This document shows, piece by piece, positions 15,130-29,829 of a stretch of 64,000 nt of DNA. Position 1 is the stretch's first letter. Each line of letters opens with the position of its first letter. A program made the position numbers and the translations under genes. The stretch comes from the human T2T-CHM13v2.0 reference genome, Homo sapiens. The stretch lies in assembly GCF_009914755.1 (NCBI RefSeq), contig NC_060947.1; one strand, 5' to 3'. Under the pieces are notes generated by a model. The model saw nothing but the letters and a program-made list of their open reading frames with translations, searched no databases and was not told the DNA's origin.

Positions 15130-16700
15130 TCCTTCCCAGTAAGGAGAAGTGTGGATCAGGACCTGCATAAAGAAGAGTCTGGCCTTTTTTCCATGAAGTG
15201 GATGCTCTGTACTGGGGGTCTTCACCAGCCTCTGGTCCCTGAAGAATTTTCAGAGCCTGGAGACAGCAAGGTTGAGGGTTGTGAGATCACAAAGATGGCA
15301 ACCAGTCCCTCTCACTGGGAGTTCTGTCTTGGGAAGTTGCAGAATTGCTGCTGGCTCAATAGCTCTGGTGGCAGTTGGCTGGAGACCCAGGCCAGGAGGA
15401 CCAGTTGAATGAAGAGATACAGGATCAGGGACCCATGTAACAAAGTGTCTGTCCACTTCTCCATAGGAATGCTGCAGTATAATGGGGGTCCACTCCAGTC
15501 CCCGGTCACCTTGGATTTTCCAGTACCTGAAGGTGGCAACAGTGAAGGCTGCCAAACAGTAAAGATGGCAGCCTGTTCCTTCCTCTGGGAGCTCCATCCC
15601 AGTGAGGTACGGCCCTGTTGCCAGCCTGAACGCACCTGCAGGAAGTAGCTGGAGACCTTGTTCAGGAAATATCACCCAGTGAAGAGTAACAGGATCAGGG
15701 ACCCACTTAAAAAAGCAGTCTGGCCATTTTTTCATAAAGCAGCTGTTCTGTGGTAGGAATCCACTCAATCCCTTAGTCACCTCGGACTCTCCAAGGCCCA
15801 CAGGCAAGAACAGCTAAGGCTGCCAAACAGCAAAGTTGGTGGCCCAAACTTTTCTCTGGGAGCTTCTTCCCAGGAAGGTTTGGAACTGCTGTTGGCTGGA
15901 AAACACTGGTGAGAGCAGCTGGATACTGTGGTTGGGAGGTCCCCCCCAGTGAAGAGGAATAGGATCGGGGACCCACTTTAAAAAGCAATCTGGTCACATT
16001 TTCATACAGCAGATGTGCTGTGCTAGGGGTCTGCATTAGCTCCCAGTGACCAGTGACCTTGGACTTTTCAAAGCTCAGAGGCAAGAACAGCTAAGGCTGC
16101 CAAACAGCAAAGATGGTGGCCTTCCCCTCCCTCTGGGGGCTCTATCCCAGGGAAGTTTGAACTGCTGCTGGCTGGAAAACATCTCCAGGGTAGCTATAAT
16201 CCTGGTTGGGAGGTCCCACCCATTGAGGATGAATGGGATTTGAGACCTGCTTTTAAGAAGCAGTCTGGCCACATTTTCATAGGGTAGCTGTGCTGTGCTG
16301 GGGGTCTGCTCTAGCCCCCAGTTGTCTCAGATGCTCCAAAGCCCGAAGGCAAGAATGGCTAAGGTGGCCAAACAGAAGAGATGGCAGCCTATTCCTCCTT
16401 CTGGGAGCTCCATTCCAGGGAGGTTTAAAACCGCTGATGGCCACATAACACCAGCAGGGGTGACTGGAGACCCCAATCACGGATTTTTCCCAGTGGAGAG
16501 AAACAGGATTTGAGACCTACGTGAATAAGCAGTCTGACTGCTTCTCTATTTAGCCTCTTGGCTGTGCCAGAGGATCGCTCCAGTCCCTATTTGACTCAGA
16601 CTCCCTAGAGCCCTAGGGCACTCGCTAAGGCTGTGAAGCAGCAAAGATGGTTTCCCACTCCTCCCCCTGGGAGATGTGTCTCAGGGAGGTGTAAAACCGG
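15130..16700. repeat. ~270-bp tandem array in L1 5'UTR (about 6 units)
   Basis: AAGATGG...CTCTGGGAGCT-like marker recurs at about 15292, 15562, 15832, 16109, 16378 and 16643. Confidence 0.8.
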
Positions 16701-18622: not shown

Positions 18623-20689
18623 CATCTTTTTTTGATCTGTTGATTTGATAACCAAGAAGGCTGCTAAGTAGCTAATGGGCAAGTAGCTTCTCAGATGATA
18701 TAGGTTTGATTACCTTAGAGCCACATAGTTCATTTTTTTTTTCTTTAAATGTGCTGAATGCTACTCCTGTGTTAATTTTCTTTGTGCTTGTCTCTGAACC
18801 ATGTGAAACTGCTTTTCCTGGATTTTCCATCTTGCACTATCATTGCTCTCTGTTACAAGATGCTGCAAAAGGTTTTGCTAACAAATTACTTCTTGTGTTC
18901 TATACAGAGATAGTCCTGGGTTCATGAGTGCTACTCACACACCCAACTTCTCTCTAATGATGCCCACTGATGCCCTATTAACCCACAGAAGATGCTTTTT
19001 TTATATGAAGTGTGATGGCAAATTAATAGATGGCAAATTGATTTGCAAAAGTTTCTCCAGGTGACAAGGGAGAAGCTTGTTTTCTTACAAGATGATCTCA
19101 CACCTGCCCCTGTGTGGTCTTCCAACTCTACACCCTGCATGAGAGAAAACCTTCCATTGGCCTCACTCTTGAAATAGATAGGGCAGATACCCCACTGGGG
19201 ATGCCTGCAGGAGAGTTTCCTCCATGCCTTCCTAGGAACCAGAATAAGGAGATTAAGGTCCAGATTGTGAGAGCAAACCGTCCTTCATGAATGAACACTC
19301 AGTGCACCAAAACCTCACTGACTTTTCTAAGGGTAGCCGATGTTCTCCGAAATTCTGATTTACAGACAACTGAAGGCCCCCAAGGGCCTCCCAAGAGAAA
19401 GGTAGACTATCACATGTGAACACAGAGGCCTATGGGACAACTTTTTGTCAGAATTTTAAAGGCAATGTGGGACTGTTTCTCATAAGTTCTCACTTAAACA
19501 TATTGTCCTGCCTCATATGGACTATGTCTATCTCTTCCCTATTTGCAAGTTAGAGAGAAAGAGGATCTCCTGTCACCATGGTCTTGGCTGTTTTCTTATC
19601 ATACCTCCCAAAAGAAAGGCCTGAAATGGACAATTTGTTTCTGGTTTTGAAGAGTGAGGCTATTGAGCCATGCTGAAGTAAAAAGGGGAAGGCAGCTCCT
19701 GCCTTTGGTCTGGTGGATCATCCCTGCTTACCTGCCTGTACCCCTTGCACCAACCTCTAGCTGTCTGCTTTTTCCAGATCTGTCTGGTCCTGGTTTGCAC
19801 ACCTGTTCATGGGGCTCTCCAGAACTGCCTTTCCACGATGGCTCTGCTTTGTGTGCAAAAGGAACAGTACTGCCCACCAGGAGGAGGATAGGCCAGAAAC
19901 CCAGAAAGATTTCTAGAAAGAGGCTATAACTGGAGCAGAAGTAGGGATCAAGGGATGGAGGGAAGGGGTCTGTTTTCAACTACAGAAGTAACATCCAGGG
20001 TGTCAACCACGTTTCTATGGAAGTGTGCATATGTGTGTGCACACACATATACAGCTGTAGATTAGCCCTAGCTGCTGTGAAAGTAGACTGTGCTGTGTGT
20101 CTGGTATTTTTCAAACAAGTATCACAGTGACGGACAAGGTTCTGTCTACTTTCCTAACCTTCATTTCTCTTCTTTCTTCATTCACCTCCATCTCCTTCTC
20201 CTTTCTCCTTATCCTTTATTTCTTCTTCATCATTATCTTTGTGTCTTTGTCTTAATCTTTTTTTCTCTCTATTTTACCTTCTTCCTCTCTTTTTCTTCCT
20301 CCTCTCTTTTTTACCCTTTTCATTCTCTGTTAACAGCCCCAACCCTCTTGCAGTTATCCACATAGGGCCTTCTTCCAGCTATCCCCACCCCTCCAGATAT
20401 CTATATTCAGCTAATCCTTGCAGAGTCCTTCCTGCATTATGTCTCTTCTTTTCTGTGGCCATCATTTTTCTGGCTGACTCTAAGTCTCCTCAATCTGAAC
20501 CAGTTTCCATGATTTTCCCAACCTCAAATGTTCCCAATATTTTTATTAAAGTAATCATTGTAAACCTTCTGGTCCTTTGCACACATCAGCAAAGTTCTTT
20601 ACAGGGCACCTCTGGTAACTTATCACCTTTTGCTTTTAACTCTTTCTTTTTTCTTTCTTTTTTTTTTTTTTGCTCGTTTTAGAATGTTC

Positions 20690-20695
20690 TTTATT
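20690..20695 (-). terminator. Polyadenylation signal AATAAA of the retrocopy
   Basis: TTTATT on the + strand, 18 nt from the start of the poly(A) remnant at 20671. Confidence 0.85.
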
Positions 20696-21879
20696 CTGAC
20701 AGTTGTTGGACAAATATAAGGCATGTTCACAAGTATCTGAAGTTATGTACAAAACACACTCATTCGACAGATATTCCTATTCTCCTTTTGTACTTGCTGC
20801 TGCAAACTGATCTTTCTGCATGTTAACACCCATAGCGCTCAATTCTTATGGATATGCAGAGAATGTTTTGGGGACCACCGTGGAGAACCTGTTTCAAACT
20901 AAGACGTAAGCTTCTTTGAACTAAGTCACTAAGACATCAGAACTCACGGTGAACAAAGGCAGAGGAAGGTGACCAAATCAGCTCATAATCTCATGACTCT
21001 AAGTTTACAGTGGAACAAAGAACACATTGAAAAACATTTTTTGATCCTTCATGTTGGAGAGAAATGGAATGTGTCCAGAATTCATGGTTCTACATTTATC
21101 ACTGTCTAAAAGTCACAAAACAATATCTAATTTTTTCATGGTTTCAAATGCAGTTACAGTTTTGTTCTTAGGCCACAGTACAAGATTGCATGCATTACTT
21201 TACACAAATGTCAAACACAGAATGATTGTAACACAGACAGCTCAGGGTTGTCTAAAGACACAGCTTCTCTTTTTGTGGTGGGGTCGGGAAGGAGAATGAT
21301 GGTGGCCATTTCCATACACAGCCTGTTGTGTGCTCAGCACGGCTGGATGCGGATCCCAAGAACTTGCTGACTGACTCACAGAAGAGGACAGAAGCTGCTG
21401 AGGAGGGCAGCAGAGTTCAAAGAGCAGTCTCCAACTGGGGGCTGGGATGACGGACACAGAGCCTCGATTCCAGGGGGAAAAAGTCTTAGTCAATACTAAT
21501 TAAAAACTGTTAACGATTTTTGAAAATCAGATTACATCTATAAAAGATGAAAAGTAAACACTTAAAACAATCTATTGAGGGGAACATAAAATAATAAAAA
21601 ATGAAATGCAGCTGGGATTTCACAAAGAGGAGATTTGAATCTTTTGGTCTCAATCAGCCAATATTTTAACATTAACTATAAATTATTAAAATGTAGTTTG
21701 CTTATGCCCATTCTTAAAATGCAGAATCTTTGAGGAAAAATATAGGCATATTTTCAGGAATACAGACTCTTGTAAAAAATTTTAAAAGTCAGTATCATCT
21801 CTCTTGCGGAGCTACTGAACAGGTTTTTCAAACACAAAAGGGGAACAAACATGGGGCGCTTGAATATGTTAAAAATTCT

Positions 21880-22168
21880 TTTTTTTTTTGAGACAGAGTT
21901 TCGCTCTTGTTGCCCAGGCTGGCGTGCAATGGCGCAATCTCGGCTCACCACAACCTGCGCCTCCGAGGTTCAAGCAATTCTCCTGCCTCAGCCTCCTGAG
22001 TAGCTGGGATTATGGGCATGCACCACCATGCCTGGCTAATTTTGTGTTTTTAGTAGAGACGGGGTTTCTCCATGTTGAGGCTGGTCTCAAACTCCTGATC
22101 TCAGGTGATCCGCCCGCCTCGGCCTCCCAAAGTACTGGGATTACAGGCGTGAGCCACCGCGCCCGGCC
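21880..22168 (-). mobile_element. AluS (AluSp-like), full length, in the retrocopy 3'UTR
   Basis: Starts GGCCGGGCGCGG on the minus strand; diagnostic GTTTCGCTCTTGTTGCCC and GGTTTCTCCATGTTG; TSD GAATATGTTAA(A/G)AATTCT at 21862-21879 and 22169-22186. Confidence 0.92.
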
Positions 22169-22568
22169 GAATATGTTAAGAATTCTTATCACTAGAATAC
22201 TGCTTTGAGGCGCTCACAGTACTTTCCAAAAGAAACTACCCACCTCAAAGAGCCCTGCACAGCCCAAGCGACCCATGAGTGTGGTAGCCATCATTTTGTT
22301 AGCCACTGCTTGGCCATCATCAAAGTATTCACTCAGAGTGGGGAAATTACTTAATATCAATGATATTAACGATTTCCATGGATTTAGCTTTGTAACACAC
22401 AATGCACAAGGGTCTTCAGATGTTTGCTTTTTACACCAATGGTAGGAAATTGTCATTCTTCCGATTCAACACGCTGGCGGATGACGCTTTAGTGAAGTGT
22501 GACTACCTAGAGGAGCAGGAAGGCGGCTCCCGATTCTCACTGGGCCAGCCTCTTCCAGAAGGTGCAGG

Positions 22569-25500
22569 CTACTCTTCTGACAGGAGATCACAAGTCTGGC
22601 AGGCTGGGCAAGCGCTCTGCCCTTTAAGCCACTGCTTAAAACACCCTTTGTGATACTTGTGCCCACATTTGAGCACACGCACGTTTTTTGATTTGAACAC
22701 CTCGTGACATATTTCACAGGAACTTGCACCCAGTGCAACCCTCACAGGGACATCTTCTGCTTTCTGCCCCTTGGTTTTGGGTGATGGTGCAACAACCGCC
22801 AAGGGTGGGCCCTGGGAGGACCTGGTCACGTGGGCGGCAGAGCTGGGCTCATAAGTCCTCTTGTCCTTTCCTGGGTTTGGCTTTTTCTTTTTCTGTTCAT
22901 CTAGAATGTGTTCTGTCACTCTTTGGACAATTTCATCAATACTCAATCCTGAAAGTGAGTTCTTGTTTTTGCTTCTCACTTTTTTAATAAAACCAGCAAG
23001 CTCAGTGCTGTTGTAACATGGGAATACCACTGACAGGTGCTCAATAATACTATTGAATGGCTTTTTTGGAGACTGGCTTGAACATGCAGCACACCCTGGA
23101 GGAACAGGCTGCTTCTGATCAGCCGCAGGGCTTTGCTCTGACAGAGCTGCCTGGCCAGCCCCTTTTGGCCCTGGCAGCTGAGTGGCTTCAGGCTGAGAGG
23201 GGGGTGGCCCTGGCAACAGTGCAGAAGGAGCCTCCCCTGGGGAATCGCCGGCAGAGAACACACTGGGATCCCTGTGAAGTGCTGCTTGGTTTCCAGTCAC
23301 ATCGCTTGCGGAAGTCATAAACCCTTGGTCATCATGGCCTGAAGACTCAGGGAGTAACTCAGGATGAACCGTGTTACAGGCAGGAAATGAAAGCTCAGAA
23401 ATCTGCACTTTAGAAAGTTCACTGAGCCGAGAACCATTTTTAATTGCCTTAATTTGTTCTTCAAACTGATACTTTGCTTTCTCAGTTTCTTTTGTAACAT
23501 TAGAAAGAAACAATTCCCATGAACATATATCGGACTCCATGTCAGGATATGCTGCAGGATCATGGCTAATCAGCTCCAGCTTCTTCAGATAGGCTTCTGC
23601 TTGTGACTGCATGATCTGTAGCTTATACACTTCACTCTCCTTCCAGTTTTCAAGTACGGATACCTCTGCAGCCACAGCTCTCTGATGACTCTCTTCATAA
23701 TCCTTTTTCCCTTTCTTTATACACTCTTCTATTTTCATTTTCTCGTTTGTAAGTGTGTTGCTGATTTCAAGGGACTGATCCAGATGTAATTCATGTTCCT
23801 TATCATTTCCATCATTTTTCTGGGTATACATTTCATTGGCATTTGAAACCTTTTTAATTTTCTTCTTCAGTGATTTTAGTGTTTTTTGGATTTCTTTTTT
23901 TTCCTCTTGCCATTTTTTAATTTCTCTTTCCAAATCTTGAAGCAACCAATCTAATTCTGTCTTTGATATCTTGTTTTCTTCTAAGTGCCTTTTCAACTTT
24001 TCTTCCAGGTCCCTGGTCTCTTCTAAGCCCTTAAGTTTTATCTGCTCATAATTTTCATACGCTTCTTTAAGTTGGTCTTGTAATACTTGGTACTCCTTTT
24101 CAATCCGTGAAATTTCCCCTTGTTGTTTCTCAAAAGGATTATATGGCTCAGTATTGACTTCTTGGTGTGTTATGTTCCAAGATACCTGTATGGCAACCAT
24201 CTGCACCTGTGGAATGTTTGTTACTGCACTGGTGCTTTCTGGAATTACTTCACATTTGTTGTTAGAATTTCCACAGTGCCCATCTTTTCTGTTAGACTCA
24301 CTCAGGACTGTATGAGCATCACCTGTGCTGCACTGTGACTTTACAGATATTAACGAAGAATCCTCAAGGATCTGTGTTTCGGAGGCAATCTGGTGACCAG
24401 CAGCATTCTCAGCATTCAAATGATGACCCTCAAAATAGGCAGTAGCATTTTTATCTGCTCTGTCATTGGCTACAAAAGACGGCACCACTGGTACTGATCT
24501 TGGTAGCTGATATTCAGGAGAAAGGCTGACCAAGGGTGTATATATGCTGGTGTACTGGGGCAAACCTGGTAACACATTTATGTATGCTGGCGATGTCCGG
24601 GTGTTATCAAATCTCTGGAAAGGAAGATACGTACAGTATCCTGTGACCAAATGGGATTGAGCCCAATAAGTTGGTTTCACATCCTCAAGAACCGGTTTGG
24701 GAGAATTAGAGGAGACTCGCTTGTAATTTGCATCCTCAGAGCCTGGTTTGGGAGAATTAGAAGAGAACCCTTTGGGTTTCCCATCCTCAGAAACTTGTCT
24801 AGAAGAATTATCGGATACTGGTTTGGCCTTCACATCTTCACAAGCTGGCTTGGGAGAATTTGCAGACAAAGGTTTGGGTTTCACATCTTCAGAAGCTGGT
24901 GCTGAAGATGAACCTGATACTGGTTTAGACTTTACATCTGGTTTAAATTCCCTAGCAGCTGAATTAAGTGGTAGTTTAACTTGTAAATACTCTCCTGCTT
25001 TTGAAATGTCTTCTACTTTTGTTTTAATGTTTTTCTTCTTTCTTTTTTTCTTGAGCCGTGATGCAACTTTCTTCAATGCAATACAGTTGTCAATCACAAC
25101 AAAACGGGGACATCCCAAGAGAAAAGATTTTAAACCTCCTGCTTTTTCTAGTATTGGTCGAGTTTCTTCTGGGAAAAACTCATATTCTTCAGAGAACATC
25201 TTGTGACTCATGTCCAAGGGACCATGTTCCTCCAACAACTGAGAGAAGTAATCATATAGAGTTGAACATTTTTGTTTTGGGTTCATGTCCCATAGCTTCT
25301 TATTGCGGACAACATATTCATTACTGTGTTGGTCATAGAGAGCTTCAAATTCTTCTACGTCTTGCCGAAGATGGTCAGGCACTGCAAATGGGCCTGCAGT
25401 ATCTGAATTTTGATTGCTATGGTCTTCACTTGAAGTGATGATCTCATTATTTGGAGTTACTGAAGTTGTTCCAGACCCAACTAACATAGGCTTTGAATCC

Positions 25501-28500: not shown

Positions 28501-28556
28501 GCAAAGACACAATCGTCCACGTAAGGGCAATCTTCTAACAAGGCATAATCCGCCAT
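22569..28556 (-). CDS. TTC3-like E3 ubiquitin ligase ORF (TPR repeats, PAM2 motif, coiled coil, C-terminal RING-H2). 1995 aa from the strong-Kozak ATG at 28556; frame open upstream to ATG 28670 and GTG 28856
   Basis: The 2095-aa ORF in the track is collinear with human TTC3 as I recall it (DNFAEGDFT...; TPR KMKGNEEFSKERFDIAIIYYTRAI; RING CEICHEVFKSKNVRVLKCGHKYHKGCFKQWLKGQSACPAC at 22718-22599). Translation is not demonstrated. Confidence 0.75.
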   Translation of the reverse strand: MADYALLEDCPYVDDCVFAAEFMTDDYVRVTQLYCDGVGKQYKDYVQSERNLEFDICSIWCSKPISVLQDYCDAIKINIFWPLLFQHQNSSVISRLHPCVDANNSRASEINLKRLQHLELMEDIVDLAKKAANDSLLIGGLLRIGYKIENKILAMEEALNWIKYAGDVTILTKLGSIDNCWPMLSIFFTEYKYHITKIVMEDCNLLEELKTQSCMDCIEQGELMKMKGNEEFSKERFDIAIIYYTRAIEYRPENHLLYGNRALCFLRTGQFRNALGDGKRATILKNTWPKGHYRYCDALSMLGEYNWALQANITAQKLCKNDPEGIKDLIQQHVKLQKQIEDLQGRTANKNPIKAFYENRAYTPRSLSAPVFSTSLNFVEKERDFRKINHEMANGGNQNLKVMDEALMVDDCDCHPEFSPPSSQPPKHKGKQKSRNNESEKFSSSSQLTLPADLKNILEKQFSKSSRGAHQDFANIMTMLRSLIQDGYTALLEQRCRSAAHAFTELLNGLDPQKIKQLNLAMINYVLVVYGLAISLLGIGQPEELSEAENQFKRIIEHYHNEGLDCLAYCGIGKVYLKKNRFLEALNHFEKARTLIYRLPGVLTWPTSNVIIEESQPEKIKMLLEKFVEECKFPPVPDAICCYQKCCGYSKIQIYITDPDFKGFIRISCCQYCKIEFHMNCWKKLKTTTFNDKIDKDFLQGICLTPDCEGVISKIIIFSSGGQVKCEFEHKVIKEKVPPRPILKQKCSSLEKLRLKEDKKLKRKIQKKEAKKLAQERMEEDLRESNPPKNEEQKETVDNVQHCQFLDDRILQCIKQYADKIKSGIWNTATLLKELLSWKVLSTEDYTTCFSSRNFLNEAVDYVIRHLIQEKNRVKTRIFLHVLSELKEVEPKLAAWIRKLNSFGLDATGPFFSRYEASLKQLDFSIMTFLWNEKYGHKLDSIEGKQLDYFFEPTSSKEARCLIWLLEEHRDKFPALHSALDEFFDIMDSRCTVLRKQDSGEAPFSSTKVKNKGKKKKPKDSKPMLVGSGTTSVTPNNEIITSSEDHSNQNSDTAGPFAVPDHLRQDVEEFEALYDQHSNEYVVRNKKLWDMNPKQKCSTLYDYFSQLLEEHGPLDMSHKMFSEEYEFFPEETRPILEKAGGLKSFLLGCPRFVVIDNCIALKKVASRLKKKRKKKNIKTKVEDISKAGEYLQVKLPLNSAAREFKPDVKSKPVSGSSSAPASEDVKPKPLSANSPKPACEDVKAKPVSDNSSRQVSEDGKPKGFSSNSPKPGSEDANYKRVSSNSPKPVLEDVKPTYWAQSHLVTGYCTYLPFQRFDNTRTSPAYINVLPGLPQYTSIYTPLVSLSPEYQLPRSVPVVPSFVANDRADKNATAYFEGHHLNAENAAGHQIASETQILEDSSLISVKSQCSTGDAHTVLSESNRKDGHCGNSNNKCEVIPESTSAVTNIPQVQMVAIQVSWNITHQEVNTEPYNPFEKQQGEISRIEKEYQVLQDQLKEAYENYEQIKLKGLEETRDLEEKLKRHLEENKISKTELDWLLQDLEREIKKWQEEKKEIQKTLKSLKKKIKKVSNANEMYTQKNDGNDKEHELHLDQSLEISNTLTNEKMKIEECIKKGKKDYEESHQRAVAAEVSVLENWKESEVYKLQIMQSQAEAYLKKLELISHDPAAYPDMESDICSWELFLSNVTKETEKAKYQFEEQIKAIKNGSRLSELSKVQISELSFPACNTVHPELLPESSGHDDQGFMTSASDVTGNQAALHRDPSVFSAGDSPGEAPSALLPGPPPSQPEATQLPGPKGAGQAALSEQSPAADQKQPVPPGCAACSSQSPKKPFNSIIEHLSVVFPCYNSTELAGFIKKVRSKNKNSLSGLSIDEIVQRVTEHILDEQKKKKPNPGKDKRTYEPSSAAHVTRSSQGPPLAVVAPSPKTKGQKAEDVPVRVALGASSCEICHEVFKSKNVRVLKCGHKYHKGCFKQWLKGQSACPACQTCDLLSEE

Positions 28557-28589
28557 AGTGAAATCTCCCTCAGCAAAATTGTCCGTGAT

Positions 28590-28900
28590 GCACAAGTCAC
28601 GCACACACGGAGGGGTGTGGAAGGCCCCGCTCCCCTGGCATCTCGGCTGCAGCGGGACCAGGTAACACATCCGGGAGCCCGGCCGCGCGCCGGGTGTGCA
28701 CTCACCCGGGCCTGCCGCCCGCGAGCCTGGGACGCAGGCATCCGCCGCCGCCGCCGCCGCCACCGCCGCCGCCGCCGCGGCCGCCGCCGCAGCAGCCGCC
28801 GCCGCCGCCGCCGCCGCCGCTGCTGCCGCTGCCGCTTCCGCCGCCGCCGCCGCCACCTCCGGCCCTCTACGTCAGCGGACGGTGGGAGGGAGCGAGTGCT
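28590..28900 (-). promoter_or_regulatory. CpG-island-like 5' leader of the retrocopy with a CRE-like site (TGACGTAG, 28874-28867)
   Basis: Very high CpG density against CpG-depleted flanks; TGACG half-site near the 5' end. Confidence 0.6.
28743..28853 (-). repeat. Interrupted (GCG/GCN)37 trinucleotide tract, reading A5-E-A24-V-A6 in the TTC3 frame
   Basis: Read directly: CCG runs interrupted by CAC, GCG, GCA, GCT and TTC on the + strand. Confidence 0.95.
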
Positions 28901-29829
28901 TTTAACTGTTTCGGTGTCAATACTGACCACAGTCATTATTTTCTCCGGCTGTACTTTAAAGTCTTAATGGTTGAAGCCATGTATCCTTTGCCCACAGACC
29001 AGAGGAAGGGGAACCAGGTTCTTTCAGGAAAGTGCATGGGGGATGCCTCTCTCTCATCATGTCCCCTGACTCCCAGGTGTAATCATAATCTCCTCATGGA
29101 AGTGCCAGGCACATAGAGAGTGCTCTTCCTGCTGCCTCCACTCCTGCTAGACAGAGCCCTGTCAAGGTCATCCTAAGGGCTGGGATCCACTAACAGCTTT
29201 GACCTTAAAGCAGAGTCTGATATTGGGGATGTCATTTCTTCACTCTGATGTACTAATTTTTTTTTTTATCTATACGCTGATGAGAGGCTGCTCAGACACC
29301 TGCAAATTAGCATCACACTCCCCTAGGTTCTCTAGCAAGATATTCTGGGAGGAAAACCTCTGAATCTTATTTCTACCTGTTGCTCAAGGAAGGGACTGTT
29401 TCCAAAGAAAATCACAGTCGTATACAGGGGAGCTTTTCTGTGTCCCTTTTTCTCCTTTGTTCCTTTTCCCCTCTCTCTCTTTTAATGGCACCCATTTCTT
29501 CCCATCACTTAGAATCACTGAGAATCTTTTTTTACCCTGGCTTATAAATTGTGTAGAATTCCTGTAAAGTATGGTGCTCCTTTGTCTGTTTCCATTGTCT
29601 CTGACCTAATTTTTGACTGACTGGCCATTTACCTGATCCACTTTAAAAGCCAGGAGAACTGTGTTCTCATTTCAGAAGAAACTGTGTTACCCTGGCCAGT
29701 TTTCTTCCCTTTTCTGGGATTCATTTCATCTGTAAAATGGGGGGCGGGGGTTGACCATCCTGGGTTCTATCTGGAGGTCGATGGGAGTCAGAGAGAGAGC
29801 TCTGACATGGTGATGCAGGGCCTTGAACT

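What the first reader, a model, noticed from the sequence alone, without database searches (positions are those of the whole stretch)
28743..28856. GCG/GCN tract in frame with the ORF behind a strong-context GTG: possible polyalanine extension and expansion-prone CGG locus
Seen: GAG GTG G (G at -3 and +4) followed by 37 codons, 35 of them Ala, with no stop before the TTC3 body. Known: 5' CGG tracts (FMR1, NOTCH2NLC, GIPC1) expand, become methylated and support near-cognate initiation; polyalanine lengthening is pathogenic in ARX, PABPN1 and others. Inference: the tract probably derives from a shorter GC repeat in the parental leader and may be length-polymorphic.
Basis: partly seen in the sequence, partly recalled or inferred. 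Interest (0 to 1): 0.7.

Follow-up and report, generated by a model that had tools for sequence, protein, structure and literature searches.

The report
CGG repeat at hidden retrogene's start
This long GC-rich triplet repeat sits at the transcription start of TTC3P1, an X-linked gene copy labelled a pseudogene whose 2,000-codon reading frame is intact and conserved in monkeys, so it is likely the start region of an overlooked working gene rather than a source of polyalanine protein, and an expansion would be predicted to silence it.

Summary
The tract is the parental TTC3 leader repeat grown by 26 triplets inside a complete retrocopy. It is already catalogued as a polymorphic 'intergenic' CGG locus (median 38). 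The polyalanine reading is weak. A published long-read 5' end and a CAGE peak map to window 28823-28824, inside the tract and 32 nt downstream of the GTG. The GTG is inherited from the parent, where its frame stops after 60 codons; a 1-base loss fused it to the main frame, and the vervet orthologue uses another frame. The larger result is the gene. TTC3P1 has no indel or stop over 6,015 nt, dN/dS 0.41 against the parent and an intact RING. Full-length predicted orthologues exist in two Old World monkeys. The parental ATG is now ACG, with a new strong ATG at codon 11. Best reading: a mis-annotated catarrhine retrogene transcribed from an inherited CpG-rich CGG leader, an FMR1-like layout. No protein, full-length transcript or large expansion was found. 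The repeat is heavily interrupted (longest pure run 8).

The parts
28897..28912 (-). 5' target-site duplication (16 bp, 1 mismatch to the 3' copy); outer edge of the retrocopy
28857..28896 (-). parent-derived 5' leader upstream of the tract, with a TGACG (CRE-like half site, name recalled) at 28874; a TAG at 28869-28867 (TGG in the parent) closes the poly-Gly frame
28743..28853 (-). interrupted GCG/CGG tract, 37 triplets, 8 of them not GCG; hg38 X:75747071-75747182; about 11 triplets lie upstream of the mapped start and 27 downstream
28823..28824 (-). mapped transcription start: 5' end of HAP1 PacBio isoform PB.14985.1 (3 full-length reads) and FANTOM5 CAGE peak; falls on a C|A step at a GCA interruption
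   Evidence: PMC8108447 supplement files 10 and 4, mapped
28761..28763 (-). second in-frame GTG inside the tract; within the transcript; would add only 6 Ala before Asp (2,064 aa)
28535..28741 (-). out-of-frame upstream ORF from a new, weak-context ATG at the tract's end (68 codons, overlaps the main start)
28668..28670 (-). former parental uORF ATG, weak context, now in frame (2,033 aa)
28597..28641 (-). 14-codon upstream ORF from the second inherited ATG
28612..28615 (-). C run one base shorter than in the parent; this is what puts the Ala frame in frame with the main ORF
28584..28586 (-). parental start codon, now ACG (Met kept in the vervet and snub-nosed monkey orthologues)
28554..28556 (-). 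new ATG at parental codon 11 (GTG in the parent, Val in both monkey orthologues), A at -3 and G at +4; likely main start, 1,995 aa
22569..28556 (-). intact TTC3-like ORF (TPR, TTC3/DZIP3, winged-helix, helical and RING domains); RefSeq model covers only 22210-24751
22599..22718 (-). RING finger, identical to the parent over 40 residues
21862..22168 (-). Alu-type insertion (name recalled) in the 3' UTR with its own 19-bp duplication; absent from the parent
20631..20695 (-). AATAAA (20695-20690), poly(A) tail (about 20672-20647) and 3' target-site duplication (20646-20631)

Best explanation
The tract is the parental TTC3 leader repeat, carried into a complete X-linked retrocopy and lengthened by 26 triplets; it contains the mapped transcription start of TTC3P1 and likely acts as the CpG-rich promoter and 5' UTR of a likely protein-coding retrogene, whose main product is predicted to start at the ATG at 28556 without polyalanine. 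SHOWN: retrocopy anatomy; repeat growth; open ORF; purifying selection; orthologous predicted proteins in two monkeys; a published 5' end and CAGE peak inside the tract; polymorphism in catalogues. INFERRED: insertion shortly before the ape/Old World monkey split; low germline methylation of the leader; that the repeat drives rather than merely hosts initiation; scanning past two weak ATGs and one moderate ATG (with re-initiation after the 14-codon uORF) to 28556; ubiquitin-ligase activity of the protein; silencing by methylation if the repeat expanded greatly.
For: Retrocopy: 46 parental exons joined, poly(A) tail, 16-bp duplication. Selection: 0 indels in 6,015 coding nt against 7 in 1,580 nt of 3' UTR (Fisher p 1.7e-5; one of the 7 is the 6-nt loss at the parent's stop). 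dN/dS 0.41 against the parent. Parental CpG bases changed at 20 of 46 synonymous but 13 of 122 non-synonymous positions (p 7e-6). 9 of 61 copy-branch amino-acid changes fall on the 586 of 2,005 columns invariant in 44 other mammals (29% expected, p 0.007). Neutral simulation, 600 runs per setting: no stop in 0.2-2.7% of runs. Vervet P0001 and snub-nosed monkey P0002 group with the human copy (99/98), share 12 derived residues and align without gaps over 2,005 residues. PMC8108447 file 7: a 645-codon part has no stop in chimp, gorilla, orangutan or rhesus, median dN/dS 0.19. Start site: window 28824; the mapping is checked by two ATGs and by downstream A content of 65% and 85%, matching the table exactly. 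Leader keeps 18 of 22 parental CpGs, 3' UTR 10 of 23 (p 0.013). About 3% of expressed retrocopies inherit a parental promoter (PMC4772013 passages), so the route is known.
Against: The start rests on 3 reads in one cell line plus one CAGE peak in a GC-rich repeat, where reverse-transcriptase stops and short-tag mapping are real risks; upstream minor starts are not excluded. Neither long read is full length; both end at A-rich internal sites. HAP1 short-read counts are low (3-43 per sample) and may include TTC3 reads. I found no peptide or ribosome-profiling evidence. The human copy differs from the mammalian-invariant residue at 13 columns, against 7 for the parent and 6 for each monkey copy, and has lost Met1, which suggests some relaxation. 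The dN deficit alone depends on how synonymous changes are split: 65 or fewer neutral changes (observed 61) occurred in 40% of runs if only 28 synonymous changes are on the copy's branch, 3% if 39, 0.2% if 48. The monkey proteins are gene-model predictions; P0002 carries a C-terminal tail that looks like a model bridging the stop. Promoter activity of the repeat itself is untested.
Confidence: 0.68

Rival explanations
1. One reading: the GTG at 28856 starts a 2,095-aa protein with a 35-Ala N-terminal extension at a meaningful level.
For: Frame is open and the context is G at -3 and +4. The GTG is 40 nt inside the insertion's 5' end, so a transcript starting at that end would include it. GC-rich structure downstream can favour near-cognate starts (established knowledge).
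Against: The mapped 5' end is 32 nt downstream of it. In the parent the same GTG frame stops after 60 codons at the exon 1-2 junction. The vervet model starts at the second upstream ATG with 54 nt to the main Met, against 55 nt in human, which implies the Ala frame is out of frame there (inferred from protein only). A search with residues 36-92 found no protein at E<=1 among 46 candidates of 1,152-3,667 aa (weak, because ape copies are hidden in a 90% cluster and the musk-deer uORF look-alike was also missed). Tracts of 13-20 Ala were already toxic in a yeast model (PMC3113764 passages). The leader folds no better than shuffles (z 0.69).
Confidence: 0.08
2. TTC3P1 was a working retrogene in the catarrhine ancestor but is decaying in humans; the tract is an unconstrained microsatellite in a transcribed pseudogene.
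For: Met1 lost; three ATGs precede the strong ATG; 9 changes at invariant columns on the copy's branch against 3 on the parent's; low expression in HAP1.
Against: Human-chimp and human-gorilla dN/dS are 0.107 over 645 codons (PMC8108447 file 7). The RING is unchanged. A strong ATG arose ten codons after the lost one on the same lineage.
Confidence: 0.12
3. The retrogene is real, but the tract is a passenger in its 5' UTR or flank: true initiation is at the insertion's 5' end or in the flank, and the start inside the tract is a mapping or reverse-transcription artefact.
For: Only 3 reads; 81% GC leader; a TGACG motif lies upstream at 28874.
Against: Two independent methods agree within 1 nt, and the site is a C|A step typical of mammalian starts (recalled).
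Confidence: 0.12

Closest known systems
Retrogenes with a promoter inherited from the parental mRNA (PMC4772013, passages read)
   Same: Start site lies inside parent-derived 5' sequence; CpG-rich; ORF intact across species.
   Different: Here the inherited element is a triplet repeat that roughly tripled in length; TTC3 is not named in that paper's main text and its supplements could not be read.
Transcribed 'pseudogenes' with conserved ORFs such as HMGB1P1 and AK4P3 (PMC8108447, part 1 of 6 and supplement rows read)
   Same: TTC3P1 is a row in that paper's tables: transcribed, CAGE-supported, dN/dS below 1.
   Different: Only a 645-codon piece was scored, TTC3P1 is not named in the main text, translation was not tested, and the repeat was not linked to the start.
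FMR1, AFF2 and BCLAF3 5' CGG/CCG loci (PMC7844047 part 1 of 5; PMC13673688 passages)
   Same: X-linked, polymorphic CGG tract at the 5' end in CpG-rich DNA; median 38 units, longer than FMR1 (28) and AFF2 (30) in the same table.
   Different: 8 interruptions in 37 triplets, longest pure run 8; no allele above 57 in the tables seen; no methylated expansion or disease found; a close paralogue (TTC3) could buffer loss.
Poly-glycine disorders (NOTCH2NLC uN2C, FMRpolyG; abstract start of PMC8186563 seen in a search listing, rest recalled)
   Same: GGC repeat in a 5' leader with upstream ORFs.
   Different: The Gly frame is closed by a TAG just upstream and has no ATG, CTG, GTG, ACG or TTG before or in the tract; it is the Ala frame that runs into the main ORF.
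Polyalanine-tract genes (ARX, PABPN1, HOXD13, PHOX2B; largely recalled)
   Same: Imperfect GCN run in frame with a protein.
   Different: Here the run lies upstream of every in-frame ATG, straddles the transcription start, and its frame is not conserved.

Membership tests
Processed (L1-made) retrocopy | Intronless copy of a spliced mRNA | tested here: met
   46 parental exons, 45 of 45 junctions fit GT/GC-AG
Processed (L1-made) retrocopy | Poly(A) tail and target-site duplication | tested here: met
Protein-coding retrogene | Intact ORF with domains | tested here: met
   1,995-2,033 aa from ATG; Pfam domains and RING intact
Protein-coding retrogene | ORF kept in orthologues | tested here: met
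   Predicted vervet and snub-nosed monkey proteins; 645 codons in four primates
Protein-coding retrogene | Purifying selection | tested here: met
   published median dN/dS 0.19
Protein-coding retrogene | Own full-length transcript | tested here: inconclusive
   CAGE-supported 5' end, but both long reads end at A-rich internal sites; allele-specific X-linked expression reported in two preprints
Protein-coding retrogene | Protein detected | not testable with these tools
   No proteomics or ribosome data available; none found in the paper searches
FMR1-type 5' CGG locus | CGG tract at the start or in the 5' UTR within CpG-rich DNA | tested here: met
   GC 0.81, CpG observed/expected 1.06 over 297 bp; start inside the tract
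FMR1-type 5' CGG locus | Length polymorphism | tested here: met
   Short-read catalogues only: 37% polymorphism in 544 genomes; 16-48 units, 111 hits listed for a cohort of 191
FMR1-type 5' CGG locus | Long uninterrupted run predisposing to expansion | tested here: not met
   Longest pure run 8 in this allele
FMR1-type 5' CGG locus | Large methylated expansions that silence the gene | not testable with these tools
   No mention in one methylation-outlier supplement file or in main-text searches
Poly-glycine (uN2C/FMRpolyG) locus | Upstream start codon open into the Gly frame | tested here: not met
   TAG closes the frame; no listed start codon follows it
Polyalanine-tract gene | Tract lies downstream of the used start codon | tested here: not met
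   All in-frame ATGs are downstream of the tract; the first GTG is outside the mapped transcript
Polyalanine-tract gene | Ala frame conserved in relatives | tested here: not met
   Out of frame in the parent and, by inference, in vervet; ape DNA not available

The most novel reading that the evidence does not exclude
TTC3P1 is an unrecognised X-linked E3-ligase gene of catarrhines whose start site sits in one of the longest normal CGG tracts in the human genome. The repeat is an unlisted expansion-disease locus with two routes: methylation silencing, or repeat-driven translation of polyalanine fused to the whole 2,000-residue ligase, because a 1-base loss put the Ala frame in frame.
Probability: 0.07. 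Interest if true: 0.85.

Novelty: new member of a known kind. Interest (0 to 1): 0.57.

Why it matters
A 6-kb coding frame under selection is annotated as a pseudogene covering only its last 2.5 kb, so exome, proteomic and CRISPR pipelines are likely to skip it. Repeat catalogues file this tract as 'intergenic', so expansion screens would rank it low although it spans the start of a probable gene on X. TTC3 is a chromosome 21 gene studied in Down syndrome (recalled); a 94%-identical X-linked paralogue could buffer or confound knock-down, antibody and expression results. The pieces are in supplementary tables of separate papers; I did not find them joined in print.

Tried and rejected
Chance origin of the tract: rejected. 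De novo origin at the insertion site: rejected; the 20-base flank pattern occurs only here and in TTC3 exon 1. Poly-Arg frame from the flank ATG at 28936: needs a start outside the insertion, 112 nt upstream of the mapped one; not pursued. Special RNA structure: none beyond base composition. Solved-structure search gave only generic TPR and RING relatives. Search for annotated proteins with the Ala-frame extension: none, low sensitivity. The chromosome 11 copy is partial (81-84% identity, with a stop) and was not used as an outgroup. No primate DNA outgroup was available, so synonymous changes could not be polarised; strong-to-weak counts were 44 against 28, hinting that the copy's branch carries at least half. 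The 'fraction at invariant columns' printed was a script error and was recomputed (0.287). In PMC9808627 only the catalogue entry was found, and its file 1 was not searchable. Supplements of PMC4772013 could not be read and may list this retrocopy; bioRxiv supplements were closed, including those of 10.64898/2026.06.26.734816, whose main text does not name TTC3. Earlier scan notes were not available.

Full report
OBSERVATION. On the minus strand the sequence reads GAG GTG at 28859-28854, followed by 37 codons to 28743, of which 35 are Ala (29 GCG, 3 GCA, 2 GCT, 1 GCC; the others are GAA and GTG). The longest Ala run is 24. The frame runs from 28871 to a stop at 22569. Nowhere else in the window does a 37-codon stretch hold more than 11 GCN codons. 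The longest pure GCG run is 8.

WHERE THE TRACT CAME FROM. A genome search with the surrounding DNA found TTC3 exons 1-3 on contig 21 and an older partial copy on contig 11. The window sequence matches 46 parental exons joined without introns. It ends in a poly(A) tail and is flanked by a 16-bp duplication with one mismatch at 28912-28897 and 20646-20631. The insertion therefore begins 40 nt upstream of the GTG. The parent has the same GAG GTG followed by (GCG)6 (GCT)6 GCC; the copy is 78 nt (26 triplets) longer. The GTG and its context are inherited.

WHY THE ALA FRAME IS IN FRAME. In the parent the GTG frame is the frame of an upstream ATG and stops after 60 codons, at a TGA made by the exon 1-2 junction. 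The copy lacks one C at 28612-28615, which joins that frame to the main ORF. Predicted N-termini of a bat and the musk deer read through this run as the human parent does, so five Cs is likely ancestral (inferred from protein). Rodent and pika models have the second upstream ATG in frame instead, so frame relations in this leader shift easily. The vervet orthologue also has the second ATG in frame, 54 nt before Met1 against 55 nt in human, which puts the Ala frame out of frame there unless another indel compensates. No annotated protein matched the Ala-frame extension (0 of 46 candidates), a weak negative.

WHERE TRANSCRIPTION STARTS. Supplement file 10 of PMC8108447 lists a HAP1 PacBio isoform of TTC3P1 (3 full-length reads) whose CDS starts at transcript position 155 and hg38 X:75746998, within a FANTOM5 CAGE peak. 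File 4 lists a second isoform 526 nt from the same peak. The offset to the window is fixed by two ATGs, by the catalogue coordinate of the repeat, and by downstream A content (65% and 85%, as in the tables). A ribosome scanning this RNA would meet the GTG at 28763 (in frame, 6 Ala), a weak out-of-frame ATG (28741), a weak in-frame ATG (28670), a 14-codon uORF (28641), the ACG that replaced Met1 (28586) and a strong ATG at 28556. Both monkey orthologues keep Met1 and Val11, so the loss and the new ATG are on the ape or human line and look compensatory (inference). The leader keeps 18 of 22 parental CpGs against 10 of 23 in the 3' UTR (p 0.013), as expected of a region largely unmethylated in the germline. 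Limits: 3 reads, one cell line, a GC-rich repeat, and no full-length transcript.

THE GENE IS UNDER SELECTION. Against the parent, 6,015 coding nt show 205 substitutions, no indel and no stop; dS 0.066, dN 0.027, ratio 0.41; 119 of 2,005 residues differ. The 3' UTR has 7 indels in 1,580 nt, one being the 6-nt loss that removed the parent's own stop. CpG bases changed at 20 of 46 synonymous and 13 of 122 non-synonymous positions. Of 119 differences, 61 fall on the copy's branch, 57 on the parent's and 1 is unassigned; 9 of the 61 hit columns invariant in 44 non-catarrhine mammals, where 29% is expected (p 0.007). I chose those 44 by hand from the 120 listed hits (of 349) as near-full-length and non-redundant. 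Neutral simulation expects 4-7 stops, and none in 0.2-2.7% of 600 runs; the dN deficit is significant only if at least half of the synonymous changes are on the copy's branch. The two best protein hits, vervet 'TTC3-like' and snub-nosed monkey A0A2K6NCA2, group with the human copy at 99/98 in a 13-row tree, share 12 derived residues and align without gaps. The published table shows no stop in a 645-codon part in chimp, gorilla, orangutan and rhesus, median dN/dS 0.19. Equal stems of 12 changes against totals near 60 put the insertion a little before the ape/monkey split (about 25-30 million years, textbook date). Against: 13 departures from invariant residues in the human copy, versus 7 in the parent and 6 in each monkey copy. 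Two preprints report X-inactivation-related allele-specific expression of TTC3P1 in fibroblasts and in iPSC-derived neurons (passages); cross-mapping with TTC3 cannot be excluded.

THE REPEAT IN POPULATIONS. PMC7844047 file 2 lists it as intergenic TTC3P1->MAGEE2: reference 37, median 38, range 0-57, polymorphism 0.37; the parent's repeat has reference 6, median 8. Only 11 of about 6,101 loci have a longer median. PMC13020279 gives median 38, range 16-48, 111 hits in a cohort of 191, 'polymorphic' (decimals in other columns were lost, so I do not quote them). These are 150-bp short-read estimates on a 112-bp impure repeat, and the zero minimum suggests failed calls. The hg38 and CHM13 alleles have the same length. 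No large or methylated expansion turned up, but most long-read catalogues were not searchable here.

MECHANISM AND VERDICT. Most likely (0.68) an L1-made, 5'-complete copy brought along a CpG-rich leader; the repeat grew; transcription now starts within it; and a near-full-length TTC3 paralogue is made from the ATG at 28556. The polyalanine product from the first GTG is unlikely (0.08). Decay in humans (0.12) and a passenger tract with an artefactual start (0.12) remain. It works like an FMR1-type 5' CGG locus in layout, but fails the long-pure-run test and has no known expansion. It is not a poly-Gly locus or a polyalanine-tract gene on the features tested. It passes the retrogene tests that could be run, except full-length RNA (inconclusive) and protein detection (not testable).

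PAPERS SEEN. PMC8108447: part 1 of 6, passages, supplement rows. PMC7844047: part 1 of 5, supplement rows, file 3. PMC13020279: passages, supplement row. PMC9808627: one supplement passage. PMC4772013, PMC3113764, PMC13673688, 10.1101/298984, 10.64898/2026.02.27.708613, 10.64898/2026.06.26.734816: passages. PMC13278280: supplement search only, no hit. PMC8186563: search listing. Facts on ARX, HOXD13, PHOX2B, interruption thresholds, initiator dinucleotides and TTC3 in Down syndrome are recalled.

Noticed in passing
window 22569-22503 (-) and L022 (parent last exon): The copy keeps the stop after ...LLSEE that many mammalian TTC3 proteins have; the human and siamang parent lost it (a 6-nt loss in human) and gained a 20-residue tail.
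   Followed up: partly
L004, G000:C11:67187179-67187887: A second, older and partial TTC3 retrocopy (81-84% identity, covers the 5' coding exons, has an in-frame stop and an internal deletion).
   Followed up: no
L003:1510-1710 (parent TTC3 exon 1): The parent's own leader repeat is polymorphic (median 8, range 6-34) and has CTG and ACG codons open into a Gly9-Cys6 frame, and a GTG open into a 13-Ala uORF; two upstream ATGs have counterparts in musk deer, bat, rodent and pika models.
   Followed up: partly
window 22210-24751: The RefSeq model covers only the last 2.5 kb of an 8.2-kb insertion and misses the start, leader and two thirds of the ORF.
   Followed up: yes
window 21862-22168: Alu-type element inserted into the copy's 3' UTR with a 19-bp duplication.
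   Followed up: partly
window 24673-24939: 51-bp (17-residue) coding tandem repeat, shared with the parent.
   Followed up: no
window 15673-16441: About 2.8 copies of a 270-277-bp unit at 75% match, not in the masked list given; possibly an old L1 5' region (guess).
   Followed up: no
TTC3P1 locus: Called a novel X-inactivation escapee in fibroblasts and XIST-sensitive in iPSC-derived excitatory neurons; could be real or TTC3 cross-mapping.
   Followed up: no
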